From NCBI GenBank assembly GCA_951406725.2, contig OX597823.1, forward strand, positions 73,780,001 through 73,844,000: DNA of 64,000 nucleotides, given 5' to 3'. A program made the position numbers and the translations under genes. The notes under the pieces were generated by a model. That model made no database searches. It was not told the DNA's origin and was given only the letters and a program-made list of their open reading frames with translations. The DNA is from Octopus vulgaris (taxonomy: Eukaryota). Of the stretch, positions 14,322 to 59,510 are shown piece after piece. Numbering within the stretch: position 1 is the stretch's first letter; each line of letters opens with the position of its first letter.

Positions 14322-15786
14322 TCACTTCACAGCAAAGGTGGGAGTGTAGATGGTCCTGCACAAAGATAGTCCGAACACAAGCTGATGTTGTAGCAAATGA
14401 CCGGTAGAGCGGAAATGGTGTGAGACCGGGGTGTCATTGTTGAGTCTGATGTCTTGGAAGTGCTTCGTGAACTGGTCAGCCAAGCAAAGTCCTTTTTCAC
14501 CGATGTACAGGGAAGGACAGAGAAAGCAGGAGATACAGTAAATGACATTACTAGAAGTGCAGGTAAAGGAGTTGGTGATGTGATAGGGACAATGATGGGT
14601 ACCTGTGAGGATAGTGGTGTTGGAGAGGTAGGGGCAAGTGTGACAGCATGGGTGGGAGCAGGGGAACATGCCAGGTTGAGAGGAGGTGGTTAGGTAAGAA
14701 ACTATGGACCAGGAGGTCACATAGGTTCTGGGCTCGTTTGAAGGCGAGAAGGGGTAGGTTGGAGAAGATATGTGAGGTGGAGTGGTGGTAGGTGAGGGAA
14801 GATGAGCAATAGTAGGATGGGTGCGAGGAGAAAGAGCAGAGACATGGTCCATAGGTTATACACTGGCTAGGGCAGTGTGGACAGTGGTGGACATGTAGGA
14901 TGAAATGGTAAGCCATGAGTTGAGACTGAGCCTCAAAGTCATGGTTGTCATTGCAGAGCCTGCACAGATGGAGAGCTTGGTGTGGGTAGGGTGGGAGGAG
15001 GAGAAGTTAATGTAGGAGTGTGAGTCAGTGTGGATGGAGTTAGTGAGAGCAGAGTGGTGTATTCTGACAGAAATGTCAAAAAATTGAGATAGTCTGGAGA
15101 ATTCGAGGGCAGGATGGAAGGATTGGACAAAAGAGAGGACGTAATCTAATTGTTTGTGGGAGAGTGAGGTCATGCTGATATAGTTATCAATATAACGACC
15201 ATATAGTTCGGGAGTGGGACCAGTGAATTGTGAGAATATTTGGGCCTCAACATAGCCAACGAACAGGTTCGCATAGTTGGGGCCCATTCTTGTTCCCATG
15301 ACCACTCCTGAGAACTATTGGTAAAAATCCCTCGTGAACAAGAAGCAGTTGAGAGAGAGAACAAGTTCGACCAGACGAAGTGTGGAGGTGTCAGGTTGAA
15401 GGTCCAGAAAGTGTTTCAGTGCAAGAAGTTCTTCATTGTTTGGGATCACCGTATATAAACTCTTGATATCAAGAGTGAATGGAAATTTAGAAAAGCCAGA
15501 AGGGAAGGAGAAAGAGTTAAAGAGACAGAGAGCATGGTTAGTGTTGTGGATGTGGGAGGAGAGGGAAGCCACTAGGGTGGGGGTGGGCAAGGATACAGTT
15601 GAGGTATTTAGAGATCATTTCCATGGGGTAGTTGCAGGCAGAAACAATGGGGTGGCCAGGATTGTTGGGCTTGTGAATTTTGGGAAGAAAGTAAATGGTG
15701 GGGGTGCGTGGAGTGCGGACATTGATGTTGCAGGCGGTGGGAGGGAAACAGGAGGAGGAAATGGGGTCATGAATAGTGGAGGACAT
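14322..15786 (-). mobile_element. Degenerate Penelope-like retroelement (Neptune type): RT + Zn-finger linker + GIY-YIG endonuclease
   Basis: IYFLPKIHK, TLDIKSLYT, MGTRMGPNYANLFV, YGRYIDN (RT); PCSHPCCHTC linker; NVIYCISC..C.SLYIGE (GIY-YIG); multiple frameshifts, 5' truncated. Confidence 0.92.
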
Positions 15787-16152
15787 AATATGCTGAGACC
15801 CTCTTCGGTCATGACTGACCGTGGGATTGCACCTAGAGAGTTACCCTCCCAGGCACAAGTCCGGGCAAGGTTGTTTTTATGGAAGACCAGCAGTTGCCCA
15901 TGCATACCAGCCTCCCCTCTCCACACCACTGATGTTATCCAAGAGAAAGGCAAAGGCCGATACAGCTTGGCACCTGTGACGTTGCAACTCATTTCTACAG
16001 CTGATTGAACTGGAGCAATGTGAAAGAACACAACACGCAGCCTGGTCCAGGATTCGAACTCACAACCTCACAATTGTAAGCTTGACGCTCTAACCACTGA
16101 GCCATGTCCCTTCACCGGACATAATATATATATATATATATGTGTTTGTATA

Positions 16153-18988: not shown

Positions 18989-19614
18989 AAGCTGCGAGCT
19001 GGCAGAATCGTTAGCATGCTGGGCGAAATGATTAGTGGTATTTTGTCTGCTGCTACATTCTGAGTTCAAATTCTGCTGAAGTCCACTCTGTCTTTCATCC
19101 TTTTGGGTCGATAAATTAAGTACCTATTTCTTTATTACCCACAAGGGGCTACACACAGAGGGGACAAACAAGGACAAACGGATTAAATTGATTACATTGA
19201 CCCCAGTGCGTAACTGGTTCTTAATTTATCGACCCCGAAAGGATGAAAGGCAAAGTCAACCTCGGCGGGATTTGAACTCCCAACGTAACGCAGAGGAAAT
19301 ACCGCTAAGCATTTCACCCGGCGTGCTAACGTTTCTGCCAGCTTGTATCAGTTACGCACTGGGGTCGATATAATCGACTTAAATCCGTTTGTCTGCCCTT
19401 GTTTGTCCTCTCTGTGTTTAGCCCCTTGTGGGTAGTAAAGAAATAGGTATTTCGCCTGCTGCTACATTCTGAGTTCAAATTCCGCTGAAGTCCACTTTGC
19501 CTTTCATCCTTTTTGGTTGATATATTAAGTGCTACTTGAGTATTGGGGTTGATGTGATTGACTGCCCCCCTCCCCACAAAATCCAGACCTTGTGCCTATA
19601 GTAGAAAAGATTAT
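18989..19614. mobile_element. Nested SINE family 1 cluster (minus copy inside an internally duplicated plus copy)
   Basis: Plus copy broken at AAGTAC (~19123) by a minus copy (~19124-19343), resumes at CAGTTACGCAC, then repeats from GTATTTCG at ~19447. Confidence 0.8.
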
Positions 19615-25168: not shown

Positions 25169-25241
25169 AGGTTCCAGTGAGTTTTGAACTCACGACCTTC
25201 TGTGTGTTAAGCAGATGTGATAGCCACTACACCATGGAACC
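25169..25241 (-). pseudogene. tRNA-Val-like retrocopy (AAC anticodon), fused to a SINE
   Basis: GGTTCCATGGTGTAGTGGCTATCACATCTGCTTAACACACAGAAGGTCGTGAGTTCAAAACTCACTGGAACCT: perfect 7-bp acceptor and 5-bp T stems, one anticodon-stem mismatch, T discriminator; lies inside a TSD with the SINE. Confidence 0.85.
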
Positions 25242-32227: not shown

Positions 32228-32400
32228 GTAAGAATTTTTTTTTCTTGTACTAACTACCCATAGCTTACAGTACTTTCATGAGCTCTCATATGTATCATCG
32301 TATATCCTGCAATATCTATAAAATATTTACATCTTTGTTCTACAATAAGGCACTTACAGAGAAAAGTTGGACCTGATGCTTCTTAGGTCCAACTTTTCTC

Positions 32401-33165
32401 TGTAAGTGCCTTGAGAGAAAAGTTGGACCTAAGCAGCATCAGATGTGGCGTGCAAGAGAGGCGTCTATGCTGGTATGGACACGTAGTAAGAATGGATGAA
32501 GATAGTTGTGTGAAAAAGTGCCACACCCTAGCAGTTGAGGGAACCTGTGGAAGAGGTAAACCCAGGAAAACCTGGGACGAGGTGGTGAAGAACGACCTTC
32601 GCGCTTTAGGTCTCACCGAGGAAATGACCAGAGACCGAGACCTTTGGAAGTATGCTGTGCGCGAGAAGACCCGGCAGGACACGTGAGGCCATAACCCATG
32701 GCCCCTACCTGGGACGTAGTCAGTCCACCTGTGCATACCTTCCTTCTTGGGACACTTGTGAAGACCTGTTGAGACAAGTGAAAATCAAATAAAATCAAAT
32801 CAAATCAAAATCGATGAACATCAATGGAATTTGTATTTTTGTGGTACCAGTGCTGGTGGCACATAAGAAAACCATCCGAACGTGGCCATAGCCAGTACCG
32901 CATCGACTGGCCTCTGTGCTGTGGGCACGTAAAAAACACCATCCGAGCGTGGCCGTTCGCCAACCTCGTCTGGCACCTGTGTCGGTGGCACATAAAAAGC
33001 ACCCACTACACTCACGGAGTGGTTGGCGTTAGGAAGGGCATCCAGCTGTAGAAACACTGCCAGATCAGACTGGAGCCTGGTGCAGCCTTCGGGCTTCCCA
33101 GACCCCAGTTGAACCGTCCAACCCATGCTAGCATGGAAAGTGGACGTTAAACGATGATGATGATG
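32401..33165 (+). mobile_element. 5'-truncated RTE-clade LINE (ORF C-terminus, 3' UTR, (GAT)n tail)
   Basis: RRLCWYGHVVRMDEDS...GRGKPRKTWDEVVKND...DRDLWK typical RTE end; short 3'-end copies also near 12010-12372, 16955-17415, 17610-17860, 28840-29252, 34530-34767, 40462-40719, 43610-43847, 49684-49852, 53580-53890, 62316-62455, 63500-63640. Confidence 0.92.
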
Positions 33166-43477: not shown

Positions 43478-43550
43478 TTATCTTCTGATGCTCCTTGAAT
43501 ATCTTGAAAGTTACATCTACAAAGTGAAACCACTGCTTGATATGAATGAG
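43478..43550 (+). CDS. SF3A3: SF3A3 coding exon 8
   Basis: TTTGCCAG acceptor; (D)YLLMLLEYLESYIYKVKPLLDMNE; donor GTATAT; 73 nt. Confidence 0.93.
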
Positions 43551-44262
43551 GTATATTCACAGTACTTTTTTTCTTACCCTTTTTGTAGTTTTTAGCTCAG
43601 TTTTGTCTCGCACGTAAAAGGCACCATCCGATCGTGGCCGTTTGCCAGCCTCCCCTGGCACCTGTGCCAATGGCACGTAAAAAACACCCACTACGCTCAC
43701 GGAGTGGTTGGCGTTAGGAAGGGCATCCAGCTGTAGAAACACTGCCAGATCAGACTGGGCCTGGTGCAGCCTCCTGGCTTCCGAGACCTCAGTTGAACCG
43801 TCCAACCCATGCTAGCATGGAAAGCGGATGTTAAACGATGATGATGATCTTAAAACTTTTACAAATGAGGTGACTGGATAGAGACTAGCTCTTATAACTT
43901 TTGAATTCAAATCCACTGAAGGCATTTTGTTGTTTCTGGGTAAGGAACTCTACTTTACATGCCTTGTTTCATCTAGCTGTCAGAAACAGGAAATGTAATT
44001 CTGTCAAAATTTTCTACATTTGACTAACATCTTGTTCAGGAGGGGAATTACCTGGTCATTCATAACAAAATATTGTGTGTGTTGATTACCATAAATCGTT
44101 CTATGCTACTGTGAATGGAATGGTTTTGTTGGATCAGTTATTTTAATAACTGGTTGCCTTTCATTGAGAACTATCATCATCATCATTGTTCGACCGTGGT
44201 CGAGACTTTCATAGTCTTTTCAAATGGTTAATAATGTGTGCGCGCGCCACTTGAGACAAGTT

Positions 44263-44368
44263 GATTTTGCTTCGGCAATACAAATACTAAAATTGGAACG
44301 ATACAAAGAAGATTAGCATAGCCCCTGCGCAAGGATGACACGCAAATTCGTGAAGCGTTCCATATTTT
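44263..44368 (+). pseudogene. RNU6: U6 snRNA retrocopy/pseudogene
   Basis: Near-identical to U6 over ~106 nt (GCTTCGGC...ATACTAAAATTGGAACGATAC...GCCCCTGCGCAAGGATGACACGCAAATTCGTGAAGCGTTCCATATTTT); ACAGAGA box reads ACAAAGA and ATGG reads ATAG. Confidence 0.95.
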
Positions 44369-44375
44369 CTAAAAA

Positions 44376-44785
44376 GGCGACGAACTGGCGGAAACGTTAG
44401 CACGGTGGGTGAAATGCTTAGCGGTATTTCGTCAGCCGCTACTTTCTGAGTTCAAATTCCGCTGAGGTCGACTTTGCCTTTCATCCTTTCGGGGTTGATT
44501 AAATAAGTACCAGTTACGCACTGGGGTCAATGTAATCGACTTAATCCGTTTGTTTGTCCTTGTCCTTTCTGTGTTCAGCCCCTTGTGGGTAGTAAAGGAA
44601 TAGGTATTTCGTCAGCCGCTACTTTCTGAGTTCAAATTCCGCCGTGGTCGACTTTGCCATTCATCCTTTCGGGGTCGATTAAATAAGTACCAGTTACGCA
44701 CTGGGGTCGATATAATCGACTTAATCCGTTTGTCTGTCCTTGTTTGTCCCCTCTGTGTGTAGCCTCTTGTGGGCAGTAAAGAGAT
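44376..44785 (+). mobile_element. SINE family 1 (internally duplicated), 3' part of U6-SINE chimera
   Basis: Starts at the family 5' end 7 nt after the U6 oligo-T; segment from GTATTTCG repeated at ~44604. Confidence 0.9.
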
Positions 44786-45059
44786 AAGTCGATTTTGCTG
44801 AAGTCTATGACGATAGCTGTAGTAGCAAGGTTCAGATTAACAATTCAGTACCTCGGGATCCATCATTTCAATTTTCCAGCTATTGTGAGTCTATATTCAT
44901 GGTATCTGTTTGTTATCCTCAGAGAAAGTTAGAAAACCAGTGCTTGGTATTGTAAATTTGGGATATATTGAGTACAGCTTTGGTTCGAATATCTGTTAAA
45001 CAAATTTGATTTTCGTTGCTATTTATTATCTTGCTCCCTTATTTTTGTCTGTTTTTCAG

Positions 45060-45125
45060 GAAATGGAATCTGTTATGAAAGATTTTGAGTGGCACTGGAG
45101 TGAAGGCACATTTATCGGATGGCCT
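45060..45125 (+). CDS. SF3A3: SF3A3 coding exon 9
   Basis: TTTTTCAG acceptor; EMESVMKDFEWHWSEGTFIGWP (conserved W..GTF.GWP); donor GTAAGT; 66 nt. Confidence 0.94.
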
Positions 45126-45391
45126 GTAAGTTGCTTCTAATTTGCTTTCTTGGTTTTAATTCGCTATTTGCAAAATCCTTAGTTTATTCTATATACATAA
45201 TGTAAAAAAATTACTTATTGAATGAATGAATGCTATTAGACAAAATACAACTGTATAACTTTGAGGCTTCCATGATAGTATACCAGTATAATATTTAAAA
45301 ACGAAATTAAGAAGTGATTTTGTCACTATGGCTGTTTGGAATGCTATAAGCCTTATAATAACTGTGATTGCTGATATTTCTAGCACATTAA

Positions 45392-50893: not shown

Positions 50894-53800
50894 TAGTAAT
50901 TAAAACCTCGTCTTGAAATCACTTTTATATTTCCTTTACTGTAGAAACTCTTGGTGGATCTGTGTACAGGAGAAATAGATAGTTTCTTAGAAAAATGAAG
51001 CTCCTTAGCACTGTAGAGTGTACCCCAAGCAAGAGAAGACTACTGAATCTCAACCGTGAAAGCTTGTTCTTTTTCCTAGTCTAAATTTCCTATATTTCAT
51101 TAATCAACCATTTGTTATTCAATCTTTTTGTTGTAACATTACAAACAATTCAATCAATGTTGTTACATTTAATAGAATGTTTATGTATTTTTGGCTGTAA
51201 GTGGTTGAATATCATTTATAATAATACACACTAATAGGAAATGGAAATTGTTCTTTCATTAGTATACAAACTTATAAAAAAAAATATTTCAATAATAAAA
51301 CAATTTTTAACAATGCTGAGCCCCATTAGTTTCCCTAGGTTCTGGAGTATGGTTATTGTGGGCCAGTGTAGTGTGTTACAATTGGAATGTAGTTTATTGA
51401 AGAAATTTTCTCTTTCCAAAAGAAAGGTAATAGCACTAAATACTATGTTATATTAGAATTACTTCCCTTGGATTATAATTGGAACATGCACGTTATTCCA
51501 TTAGATTATTGCCTCATATAATGTGTCTTTCCTAAATCTTTGTGCTACTTTGGTGTCATTATTTCTGCAAGTCACAAGCCAAATAACATTACAAATGTTC
51601 CCGTATTAATTTTAATATTTCTTTTGTTAAGTTTTTGATAACTGAAATGTTTATATTAGAAACGAAATTCATTAAAAAGTACTGGCATTTTATTAAGTCA
51701 TTAAAGTCCTTTCATTGACTGCAGTGGTTGTTTGATTCAGTGGCTATTTCTTGTAACTGTAGTGTAAAATAGATGAAAAATATTTATATGTTCTTGGATG
51801 TCAGCCTATTGCATGTGAACTTCTTGGAGTTTTGATTTGAATATCAGTGTTACAAGCTAATGGCCCACTCATCAGTACTGCTATCAGCAGGGAATGATGC
51901 ACATCTGTGGTACTTTCTTCCAGCTTGGTGGATTATTCTGTCCAAAGTCATTTCCTTGCTCATGGATACATCTTAATGCTGGTAACAACTTGTAATCTGT
52001 AGGCGACTTAGATGATTGTCTGGTACCCTATTGACTTTGCTATCCTCATCTTGTCTTGATAGTAAGATATTTTAAACAGAAACTGAGCTGTAATTGTTGA
52101 TGCTATTAGCACTGTAAAATTGTGCTTCTAGTTTTGAAGTATACTAGAACATATATCATCATCATTGTTCGATCGTGGTCGAGGCAATGGAATTTACTAT
52201 GTTACGCCAGACTTCACAGTCCATCATTGCATTACGGAGGTCCTGTTGCTGGATGCCTGTATTCCTGGAGATTACATCAGGGTAGGAGAGTGTGTGGCCT
52301 CTGGTATCGCAAGCAGATGGCTTCCAGAGGAAGAACATATGTAGGAATATTTCAATTACAGATCATTAAGGAACCACTGATTTTGGCATGCTATTTTCAC
52401 CCCTTTTTAATCTAAGTTATACAAAGTACATTTTCATTCATAACATTCATATTTAACAGGCAGCTTGTATAAATATAGATTATTTGAAACATTTGTCAGA
52501 GGAATGTTATTAACTGACAGTGAAAGATCTGAAGATATAAACATAAGATGATCAATATTTGTTTAGATATGCTGTGTCAAACATAGAGACAAATTGAATT
52601 TGCATAATTGATGATGTATTGAAAAATTAAATAGCCTGGCAATTACAGTAGAGAATATGTGTTTAGAGGAAAATGATTATGGTGGTATGAAACCCCTTCC
52701 ATTTTAATGTTTGAGGGTTGGAGACCCTGACCAAAGCCATGATATACAGAAGCAGACATATGGCTGAAACTAGTGAGGTTGATCTACAAGAGACTCCCAT
52801 ACAAGTTGAACTCTGCTCTGCAGGTCAGTGCTGTTGAGCGCCAAGCAGTTTAGCTGTAAGCAATAGTTACAGGGGTTTAGCTATTTATCTGTTATTCTAG
52901 ATATTCATAGTTATTGGATAATATAGCCTAACTTTTGTAAGTTGACATGATATCGATATTTCTGAGTTGTATTTATTTAGTAAGTGACTTAAATACATCA
53001 ATATGCAATACACATGGGAGAAAAGAAAGAGAGGAATTGAATTTGAAAGTGATTATAAACAGGTTCAAATTTTAGCAAAATTAATCAATGTGTAGAGAAA
53101 ATGTGTTTACATATTAAACTGATAATGCTGAAAGTAAAGAAGAAAATAAACAAATAAGAGAAATGAAAAGGAAATGAAAGGAAGGAAAAGCATGATGATA
53201 GAAAAGAAATGAAATTTCTAAAAACACCTCAGTGACTGATTTCCAGTAGATACATTGGAATTGTGTCAGCGAGCAAGTGGTACAAATGTGATGAAACCTT
53301 TTGACACTTTATAATATACTTGACTATTAGGAAATATATGGAAAGTGATTATAACAGTCCTGGGGGTCAATTTGTTCTACTAAAACCCATCAAGGTGGTG
53401 CTCCAGCATGTCTGCAGTTAAATGACTGAAACGAGTGAAAAATAAAAGAATGTGTGTGTGTATATGCTTATGTATATACAGGGTGTTTCGCCTAAATTTG
53501 ACAGTTTGCATAAAAAGAAATGAAAACTTAATATACCGTCCCAAAATAAAATTTATATAAAAAAATCCAAATATCAACTAGATCGAGCGAGGTCATTGCC
53601 AATGCCTCTGGACTGGCTCTTGTGCAGGTGGCACATAAAAAACACCATTTGGGCATGGTTATTGCCAGTACCGCCAGACTGGCCCTCATGCCAGTGGCAT
53701 GTAAAAGCACCCACTAAACTCTCAGAGTGGTTGGCGTTAGGAAGGGCATCCAGCTGTAGAAACTCTGCCAGACCGGACAGGAGCCTGGTGCAGCCACTGG

Positions 53801-57059: not shown

Positions 57060-58375
57060 TAATGGGGGTGGATGCTCTGAGAGCGTAGCTGCTAGAATAA
57101 GAATAGCCTGGGCAAAGTTCAGAGAGCTCCTACCTCTGCTGGTAATAAAGGGTCTCTTGCTCAGAGTGAAAAGTAGACTGTATGGTGGCTATGTGTGAAC
57201 AGCCATGCTACACAGCAGTGAAGCATGGACTGTGACTGCTGAAGACATACATAGGCTTGAAAGAAATGAAGCTAGTATGCTCCGCTGGATGTGTAATGTC
57301 AGTGTGCATATGCGACAGAGTGTAAGTACCCTGAGAGAAAAGTTGGACATAGGAAGCATCAGATGTGTGCAAGAGAGACGACTGCATTGGTGTGGTCATG
57401 TGTTGTGTATGGATGAGGACAGCTGTGTGAAGAAGTGTCATACCCTAACAGTGGAGGGAACCTGTAGAAGAGGTTGAACCCAGGAAGACACAGGATGAGG
57501 TGGTGAAGCACGACGTTTGAATGTTGAGCCTCAGAGAGGCAATGACAAGCAACTGAGACTTTTGGAGATATGCTGTGCTTGAGAAGACCTGGCAAGCCAA
57601 GTGAAATCGTAGTTGTGGCCAATGGTGCTGTCACATAACTGGCCCATTTAAAAGCACCCTTTAGTCATCAGGCAATATGCCGTGCTTGTGAAGACCTGTT
57701 GAACCAAGTGAAATTATAGTTGTGTCTGATGGCAGTGCCACCTGACTGGCATGTAAAAAGCACCATTTGAGTGTGACCAATGCCAGTGCTGCCCGACTGG
57801 CACCTGTGCTGGTGGTACATAAAAAGCATAGTTCGAGCATGGCTGATGCCAGTGCCACCTGACTGACACTCGTGCTGGTGGCACATAAAAAGCACCATTC
57901 AAGTATGGCCAATGCCAGTGTTGCCTCACTGGCACCCATGCTGGTGGCACATAAAAAGCATGATTTGAGTGTGGATGATGCCAGTGCCTCTTGACTGGCA
58001 CCTGTGCTGGTGACATCTAATAGGCACCATTCAAGCATGGCCGATGCCAGTGGTACGTGACTGGCATGTAAAAAGTACCATTCGAGCATGACCGATACCA
58101 GTACTGCTTGATTGGCACCTGTGCTGGTGGCACATAAAAATCACCATTCGAACGTGGTTGAAGCCTGTGCCGCCTGACTGGCTCCCATGCCAGTGACATG
58201 TAAAAAGCACCCACTACACTCTCGGAGTGCTTGGCATTAGGAAGGGCATCCAGCTTTAGAAACCTTTACAGATCAGATTGGAGCCTGGTGCAGCCTCCTG
58301 GCTTGCCAGTCCTCAGTCAAACTGTTCAACCCATGCCAGCATGGCAAGCGGACATTAAACGATGATGATGATGAT
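57060..58375 (+). mobile_element. 5'-truncated RTE LINE with expanded ~60-bp tandem repeats in 3' UTR
   Basis: SEAWTVTAEDIHRLERNEASMLRWMC...RRLHWCGHV; repeats of TGGCACCTGTGCTGGTGGCACATAAAAAGCACCATT at ~57730-58210; (GAT)n tail. Confidence 0.88.
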
Positions 58376-59297: not shown

Positions 59298-59510
59298 TGT
59301 TGTAGAGCTGTAAACGAGGTAATTTCTACTCTTCTCCTCTGGAAGCCATCTACTCACGATACCAGAGGGCGCACACTCTCCTACCCTGATGTAATCTCCA
59401 GGGTTACAGGCATCCAGCAACAGGACCTCTGTAATGCTATGATGGACCGTGAAGTCTGGCGTAACGTAATAAATTCCATTGTCTCGACCACGGTCAAACA
59501 ATGATGATGA
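59298..59510 (+). mobile_element. 3' end of a second RTE-like LINE family
   Basis: LLLWKPST...NAMMDREVWRNVINSIVSTTVKQ* followed by (ATG)n; other copies ~52155-52335(-) and ~44174-44205(-). Confidence 0.7.

What the first reader, a model, noticed from the sequence alone, without database searches (positions are those of the whole stretch)
44253..44799. U6 snRNA-SINE chimeric retrocopy inside one target-site duplication
Seen: an essentially full-length U6 (44263-44368, ending TTTT) is followed after 7 nt (CTAAAAA) by the 5' end of SINE family 1; the whole unit is bracketed by GAGACAAGTTGATTTTGCT (44253-44271) and GAGATAAGTCGATTTTGCT (44781-44799), 17/19 identical, and the left copy overlaps the U6 5' end (TTGCT microhomology). 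Known: U6/L1 and U6/Alu chimeras occur in mammals by template switching or RtcB ligation. Inference: U6 and the SINE were integrated in one event by a non-L1 (RTE or CR1/L2-like) machinery in an invertebrate, and the partner is full length rather than 5' truncated. The ACAGAGA box is mutated, so it is unlikely to be a working U6.
Basis: partly seen in the sequence, partly recalled or inferred. Interest (0 to 1): 0.85.

Follow-up and report, generated by a model that had tools for sequence, protein, structure and literature searches.

The report
Octopus U6–SINE chimeric retrocopy
A damaged copy of the spliceosomal U6 RNA sits directly in front of a two-bodied short mobile repeat (SINE) in an intron of the octopus SF3A3 gene, and the two were likely pasted in together in one reverse-transcription event, a rare accident of a kind already known in vertebrates.

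Summary
U6 (44263-44369, 100.7 bits), a 7-nt linker and a SINE lie inside a 17/19 direct repeat, in an intron of SF3A3 of an Octopus species.

The right repeat copy overlaps the SINE's own tail, as the left one overlaps U6's 5' end. Neither part has a duplication of its own, whereas 3 of 5 other family copies show 11-15-nt ones.

Contigs of three coded relatives carry the SINE tail at this flank; a fourth, more distant one does not. Its upstream letters were not shown, so an empty site is inferred, not read.

Best reading (0.75): one target-primed insertion, with a jump from the SINE's intact 5' end to U6. Main rival (0.15): an A-tailed U6 retrocopy later hit by the SINE.

U6/SINE chimeras made by non-L1 machinery are already reported in platypus and anole (PMC4476161). 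My searches found no mollusc case. This scan earlier noted similar U4/LINE chimeras in other genomes. Ordinary by-product, new taxon.

The parts
44253..44271 (+). Left copy of the 19-nt target-site duplication; its last 5 nt (TTGCT) double as the start of the U6-derived part (5' microhomology)
44263..44368 (+). U6 snRNA pseudogene; first about 4 nt target-derived, 5' stem broken, ACAGAGA box mutated, ends in four T
44369..44375 (+). 7-nt linker CTAAAAA (origin open: SINE transcript leader, U6 oligo(A) tail or untemplated)
44376..44605 (+). SINE head (A-box-like 44386-44397, B-box-like 44450-44458) and first body, ending in the family tail
44606..44789 (+). Second SINE body without a head, restarting at the internal GGT|ATTTCG point; its tail overlaps the right duplication
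44781..44799 (+). Right copy of the target-site duplication; first 9 nt in register with the SINE tail (3' microhomology, inferred priming site)
43551..45059 (+). Host intron of SF3A3 (between exons 43478-43550 and 45060-45125); the insertion is in the sense orientation

Best explanation
This is a mutated U6 copy joined to a two-bodied SINE inside one target-site duplication, likely made in a single target-primed reverse-transcription event by the LINE machinery that serves this SINE family. Inferred steps: (1) the SINE RNA tail annealed to the nicked target (7 of 9 nt match) and primed cDNA synthesis. (2) The reverse transcriptase ran to the SINE's intact 5' end and continued onto the 3' end of a U6 RNA. 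An end-to-end template jump is preferred, about 2:1 over prior RNA ligation, because an intact Pol III 5' end would carry a triphosphate, not the 5'-OH that RtcB needs. (3) The cDNA was joined to the upstream target strand through the 5-nt TTGCT microhomology, losing U6's first 4 nt and leaving a 19-nt duplication. The second SINE body is a habit of the family, not of U6: it came either from a two-bodied source RNA or from a later in-register insertion of another copy. The insertion falls after the split from organism C and before the split from organisms B, D and E.
For: One 17/19 duplication encloses everything. The best duplication around the SINE alone is 5/5 or 6/7, and around U6 alone 6/8, whereas 3 of 5 other family copies tested show 9/11, 13/15 and 14/15 duplications. 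In those 3 copies the tail also overlaps the right duplication, and one has 19 extra nt before its head, so tail microhomology and junction filler are normal for this machinery; orthologous contigs from organisms B, D and E align from 44771 through the tail and duplication into the flank (13-14 other letters in about 440). The organism-C contig aligns only from 44786 (20 in 372), has zero depth on 44762-44782, and carries a non-matching arm of 147 nt (63 if the record coordinates are read the other way). A 147-nt arm would have to hold all of U6 if U6 were there; such a contig would probably have been broken by words shared with true U6 genes or dropped by the tool's human-DNA filter (inference). 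U6's three changes at conserved positions and the duplication's 2 mismatches fit an age of 1.5-2.7% per lineage (P 0.07-0.30 computed for 4 U6 changes, 0.11-0.27 for the duplication). Precedent: PMC4476161 section 10.
Against: The letters of the organism-C arm were cut from the output and the stretch laid held no U6, so 'neither part present' is inferred, not read. A short AAA duplication around the SINE cannot be excluded from sequence (6/7 match). The linker's five A's look like an oligo(A) tail, and A-tailed snRNA retrocopies with duplications are a known class (PMC4476161 section 7 passages). The 19-nt duplication is longer than the 11-15 nt of the 3 other copies. The two bodies differ by 8.7%, more than the locus age predicts (P 0.0002-0.045), so the SINE part has its own history and the unit need not have arrived whole. 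The partner LINE was not identified.
Confidence: 0.75

Rival explanations
1. Sequential insertion: an oligoadenylated U6 was retroposed first by an L1/Tx1-like enzyme (making the 19-nt duplication). The SINE later primed on the A-tail/duplication boundary and left only an AAA-sized duplication.
For: A-rich linker. The TT|GAGA boundary and the 19-nt length suit L1 (6-19 bp duplications in PMC6789731 passages). The SINE tail would match such a boundary at 10 of 12 nt (read). A 6/7 repeat flanks the SINE alone. PMC4476161 treats a U6atac/Alu case with an extra A and no duplication as two events.
Against: This family makes 11-15-nt duplications where they can be seen (3 of 5). The tail match to the target start is explained directly by one event. 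The organism-C contig argues, indirectly, for no U6 there. No age gap between U6 and SINE is detectable, though the test has low power.
Confidence: 0.15
2. The unit is one copy of a propagating U6-headed SINE family (like crocodilian SINEU with U1/U2 heads), copied from a master that already had U6 in front.
For: Intact SINE tail and head behind a near-complete snRNA. SINEU shows that such families arise (PMC4494074 passages). The genome could not be searched.
Against: Only 1 U6 hit in the 64-kb window, and none of the other family copies has U6 in front. A run of four T at the U6 end would stop Pol III before the SINE, and the internal boxes would start transcription downstream of U6 (established Pol III behaviour). 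No look-alike in this scan's index.
Confidence: 0.06
3. A decayed true U6 gene with a SINE inserted just downstream; the 19-nt repeat is coincidence or later conversion.
For: A TA-rich hexamer lies about 30 nt upstream of U6 position 1.
Against: The 5' stem arm is replaced by letters identical to the right repeat copy. The repeat is far beyond chance. The stretch 60-90 nt upstream is the tail of an unrelated repeat.
Confidence: 0.03

Closest known systems
U6/SINE and U6/LINE chimeric retrocopies made by non-L1 machinery: U6-Mon-1 and U6-L2 in platypus; U6-AnolisSINE2, U6-L2, U6-RTEX in anole (PMC4476161, section 10 read whole, other passages)
   Same: Sense U6 at the 5' side of a non-poly(A) SINE, one duplication around both, U6 clipped at its 5' end.
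   Different: Mollusc host; 19-nt duplication against 1-9 bp for 72.5% of 40 platypus chimeras; U6 almost complete; partner has an intact head and a doubled body.
Mammalian U6/L1 and U6/Alu chimeras; RtcB ligation model (PMC6789731 and PMC11838501, passages)
   Same: U6 ending in 4 or more T, sense orientation, duplication of 6-19 bp.
   Different: Partner has no poly(A) tail and is not 5'-truncated; a 7-nt linker intervenes; U6's first 4 nt are lost at a microhomology.
Tripartite chimeric retrocopies (Magnaporthe, human, mouse; as summarised in PMC4476161 conclusion passage; PMC2104539 seen only as a search listing)
   Same: Three RNA-derived pieces (U6, body 1, body 2) under one duplication; double jump versus later insertion is left open there too.
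   Different: Here the second and third pieces belong to the same SINE family, and the same junction recurs in copies without U6.
SINEU of crocodilians (PMC4494074, passages)
   Same: snRNA-derived 5' part on a SINE-like 3' part.
   Different: SINEU are multi-copy families with U1/U2 heads; here a single U6 copy is seen, with a Pol III stop between the parts.
Octopus tRNA-derived SINEs OR1/OR2/OK (Ohshima and Okada 1994, not read; named in PMC4824008 and PMC4758252 passages; the name OK is recalled)
   Same: High-copy octopus SINE with A/B-box head.

Membership tests
snRNA/retroposon chimeric retrocopy | snRNA copy 5' of, and in the same sense as, a retroposon 3' end | tested here: met
snRNA/retroposon chimeric retrocopy | One target-site duplication enclosing both parts | tested here: met
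   17/19
snRNA/retroposon chimeric retrocopy | No separate duplication around either part | tested here: met
   best 5/5 or 6/7 for the SINE, 6/8 for U6; an AAA-sized duplication cannot be excluded
snRNA/retroposon chimeric retrocopy | Orthologous pre-insertion site lacks both parts | tested here: inconclusive
   SINE tail absent in organism C; absence of U6 only inferred, arm letters not shown
non-L1 (L2/CR1/RTE) mobilised chimera | SINE tail shared with a non-L1 LINE 3' end | tested here: inconclusive
   no poly(A) tail; tail hits only SINE copies in the 64-kb window; no genome held
RtcB-ligated U6 chimera | U6 ending in 4-8 T joined directly to a 5'-OH (cleaved) partner | tested here: inconclusive
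   four T present; partner head intact; the 7-nt linker could be source-locus flank of a cleaved transcript
functional U6 gene | Intact ACAGAGA box and 5' stem | tested here: not met
tRNA-derived SINE | Interspersed copies with duplications and A/B boxes | tested here: met
   (box patterns recalled, one mismatch allowed)
tRNA-derived SINE | Head homologous to a specific tRNA | tested here: inconclusive
   no Rfam tRNA match at E up to 10 in the focal copy or the copy at 6261-6494
snRNA-headed SINE family (SINEU-like) | Many copies sharing one snRNA-body junction | not testable with these tools
   no genome; 1 copy in the window; 0 SINE-motif hits in metagenome and viral collections

The most novel reading that the evidence does not exclude
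Octopus has recurrent U6-headed copies of this SINE, either a propagating U6-headed SINE family or many independent jumps onto intact SINE 5' ends. That would be the first U6-headed SINE, or a natural in vivo series separating end-to-end template jumping from RtcB ligation outside vertebrates.
Probability: 0.1. Interest if true: 0.65.

Novelty: new member of a known kind. Interest (0 to 1): 0.3.

Why it matters
It extends U6 chimera formation, documented in mammals, platypus and lizard, to a mollusc; my searches found no molluscan or other invertebrate U6/SINE report, but they cover open-access text only. The intact SINE 5' end bears on a live question, template jump versus RtcB ligation, because an uncut Pol III transcript should not be an RtcB substrate. 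One locus cannot settle that; a genome-wide census could. The copy itself is likely inert, and its place in a splicing-factor gene is probably coincidence.

Tried and rejected
No genome is held, so no U6 census or source-locus search was possible.

A SINE head motif found 0 loci in metagenome and viral collections. Earlier-findings look-ups by place and sequence were empty.

A hidden snoRNA at the target was considered: only chance-level Rfam hits at 43900-45100. The right flank as an old repeat was rejected: one contig per run over 44804-45139 and no long window hit.

Supplement searches for the SINE family's identity found nothing; file 1 of each paper could not be searched and may hold consensus sequences. 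A recalled silkworm Bm1-U1 link was not confirmed by the listing (no paper opened), so it is not used.

Of the 24 runs listed only 4 were laid; the shares of the other 20 are not used as evidence. The loose-end table was filled by a repeat at 45153-45361 and did not print the one arm that mattered. Pfam gave no family for the LINE-like frames at 14322-16067 and 32408-32647.

Full report
Setting. No genome is held for this window. Exon searches found SF3A3 on the + strand: Pfam PF16837 and PF12108 hit three exons. The best database relative of one exon is an Octopus vulgaris SF3A3-like protein at 100% identity, and that protein matches the window's exons letter for letter within their bounds from 9366 to 62110 (the exon at 43478-43550 comes). 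The host is therefore an Octopus species. The feature lies in sense in the 1.5-kb intron 43551-45059.

Observation. Rfam U6 matches 44263-44369 over the full model at 100.7 bits, with three conserved positions changed, one of them in the ACAGAGA box. Only 4 bp of the 5' stem can form, because positions 2-4 match the right repeat copy instead of U6. After four T and the linker CTAAAAA, a SINE head with A- and B-box-like motifs begins at 44376 (box patterns recalled). The direct repeat 44253-44271 / 44781-44799 is 17/19. 11 of 5000 random pairs did as well, all in microsatellites, T-rich runs or repeat copies by my inspection.

The SINE has one head and two bodies with a 180-nt period. Of 8 true family tails in the window (12 rows printed; 4 dropped as chance A-rich matches), 3 run straight into the internal GGT|ATTTCG point, and 2 of those 3 have no U6. 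The doubling is thus a family habit. The two focal bodies are each 10 of 187 from a six-copy majority line that includes them, 8.7% apart, and share two private changes, both within about 21 nt of the restart point. That pattern would fit a later in-register insertion into an older copy, or a two-bodied source locus; I cannot choose between them. Also, the first 9 nt of the right repeat copy are in register with the family tail, which ends in GGT in 6 of 8 copies. The event has microhomology at both ends.

One event or two, from the window. No duplication flanks the SINE alone (best 5/5 or 6/7) or U6 alone (6/8). Of 5 other family copies tested, 3 show duplications (14/15, 13/15, 9/11) that overlap their tails, one with 19 extra nt before the head; 2 show none that I accept. 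So this family's machinery makes long duplications with tail microhomology and junction filler, as seen here, though 19 nt is longer than those three.

One event or two, from relatives. One search listed 24 runs from six coded organisms; I laid 4 (organisms B, C, D, E) on 44762-45390, a stretch without U6. Single orthologous contigs from B, D and E align from 44771 through the tail and right repeat into the flank, with 13-14 other letters in about 440; B and E look nearly identical and may be one lineage. The organism-C contig (582 nt) aligns only from 44786 to 45157 with 20 other letters in 372, and depth on 44762-44782 is zero, so no SINE tail adjoins the flank there. Its unaligned upstream arm is 147 nt if record coordinates run in the record's own direction, which three apparently orthologous contigs elsewhere in table 8 suggest, or 63 nt otherwise. 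The arm's letters were not printed. A 147-nt arm would need to contain all of U6 under the U6-first model. Such a contig would probably be broken by words shared with true U6 genes, or removed by the tool's human filter, since U6 is nearly invariant among animals (recalled). An empty site is therefore likely but inferred. The clip at 44786 also suggests that the ancestral target differed at 44785, as the left copy does, so that the right copy's letter there came from the SINE tail (inference). The insertion dates between about 1.5% and 2.7% divergence per lineage.

Mechanism. Shown: the parts, their order, the single duplication, both microhomologies, SINE presence in B/D/E and absence in C. 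Inferred: tail-primed reverse transcription on SINE RNA, continuation onto the U6 3' end, and 5' joining through TTGCT (0.75 in all). Within this I prefer an end-to-end jump to prior ligation, about 2:1. RtcB needs a 5'-OH partner (PMC6789731 passages) and an intact Pol III transcript has a triphosphate (established knowledge); template jumping is the R2-derived model discussed in PMC2912911 (passages). Ligation stays possible if the linker is flank of a cleaved longer transcript. The main rival (0.15) is an A-tailed U6 retrocopy later hit by the SINE; A-tailed snRNA copies are a known class (PMC4476161 passages). A U6-headed SINE family (0.06) is disfavoured by the T run between the parts and by a single copy in the window. 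A decayed true gene (0.03) fails on the 5' stem. The claim of non-L1 machinery rests only on the missing poly(A) tail; no partner LINE was found.

Comparison and novelty. PMC4476161 section 10 (read whole) reports U6 chimeras with L2 and Mon-1 in platypus and with L1, L2, RTEX and AnolisSINE2 in anole, so neither a SINE partner nor non-L1 machinery is new. Differences here are the mollusc host, the long duplication, the near-complete U6, and the intact, two-bodied partner. Searches listed no invertebrate U6/SINE case; the word invertebrate does not occur in PMC4476161, PMC4494074 or PMC11838501. Subscription papers, including the 1994 octopus SINE paper, were not searchable, and one supplement file in each of two SINE papers could not be opened. 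SINEs with extended internal duplications are described in reptiles (PMC10702118 passages). Verdict: real, probably one event, a new member of a known kind; interest 0.3.

Noticed in passing
window 801-1232 (-), 18995-19614, 44376-44789: 3 of 8 tails of this SINE family run directly into the family's own internal GGT|ATTTCG point, giving one-head, two-body elements; in two cases the second body belongs to a different tail subtype. Suggests self-targeted insertion or template switching by GGT microhomology.
   Followed up: partly
window 18995-19614: Nest of SINE copies: a + strand two-bodied element interrupted by a full reverse copy inserted at another internal GGT; the 5' part and second body share about six private changes over 70 nt.
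   Followed up: partly
window 6261-6528 (-): SINE copy with a 14/15 duplication and 19 extra nt before its head that partly recopy the target sequence.
   Followed up: partly
window 8713-8784 (-) and 25169-25241 (-): tRNA-Trp(CCA) about 600 nt upstream of the SF3A3 start codon and tRNA-Val(AAC) in SF3A3 intron 1.
   Followed up: no
window 44173-44206: A 34-nt tail of another repeat family (copies at 52146-52331 and 59335-59510) lies just upstream of the left duplication.
   Followed up: partly
window 32387-32686 and 14322-16067: LINE-like and Penelope-like broken reading frames (labels recalled); Pfam gave no family. Not linked to the SINE tail.
   Followed up: partly
window 44762-44791, table 2: Paralogous contigs matching the focal tail variant were laid for organisms B, D and E but not C, hinting at a tail subfamily restricted to the A/B/D/E group.
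   Followed up: no
window 45153-45361: A high-copy AT-rich repeat present in all four organisms laid that has no strong second copy in the window's self-search.
   Followed up: no
window 57661-58140: 66-nt tandem array (4.8 copies) inside the other, ATG-tailed SINE family.
   Followed up: no
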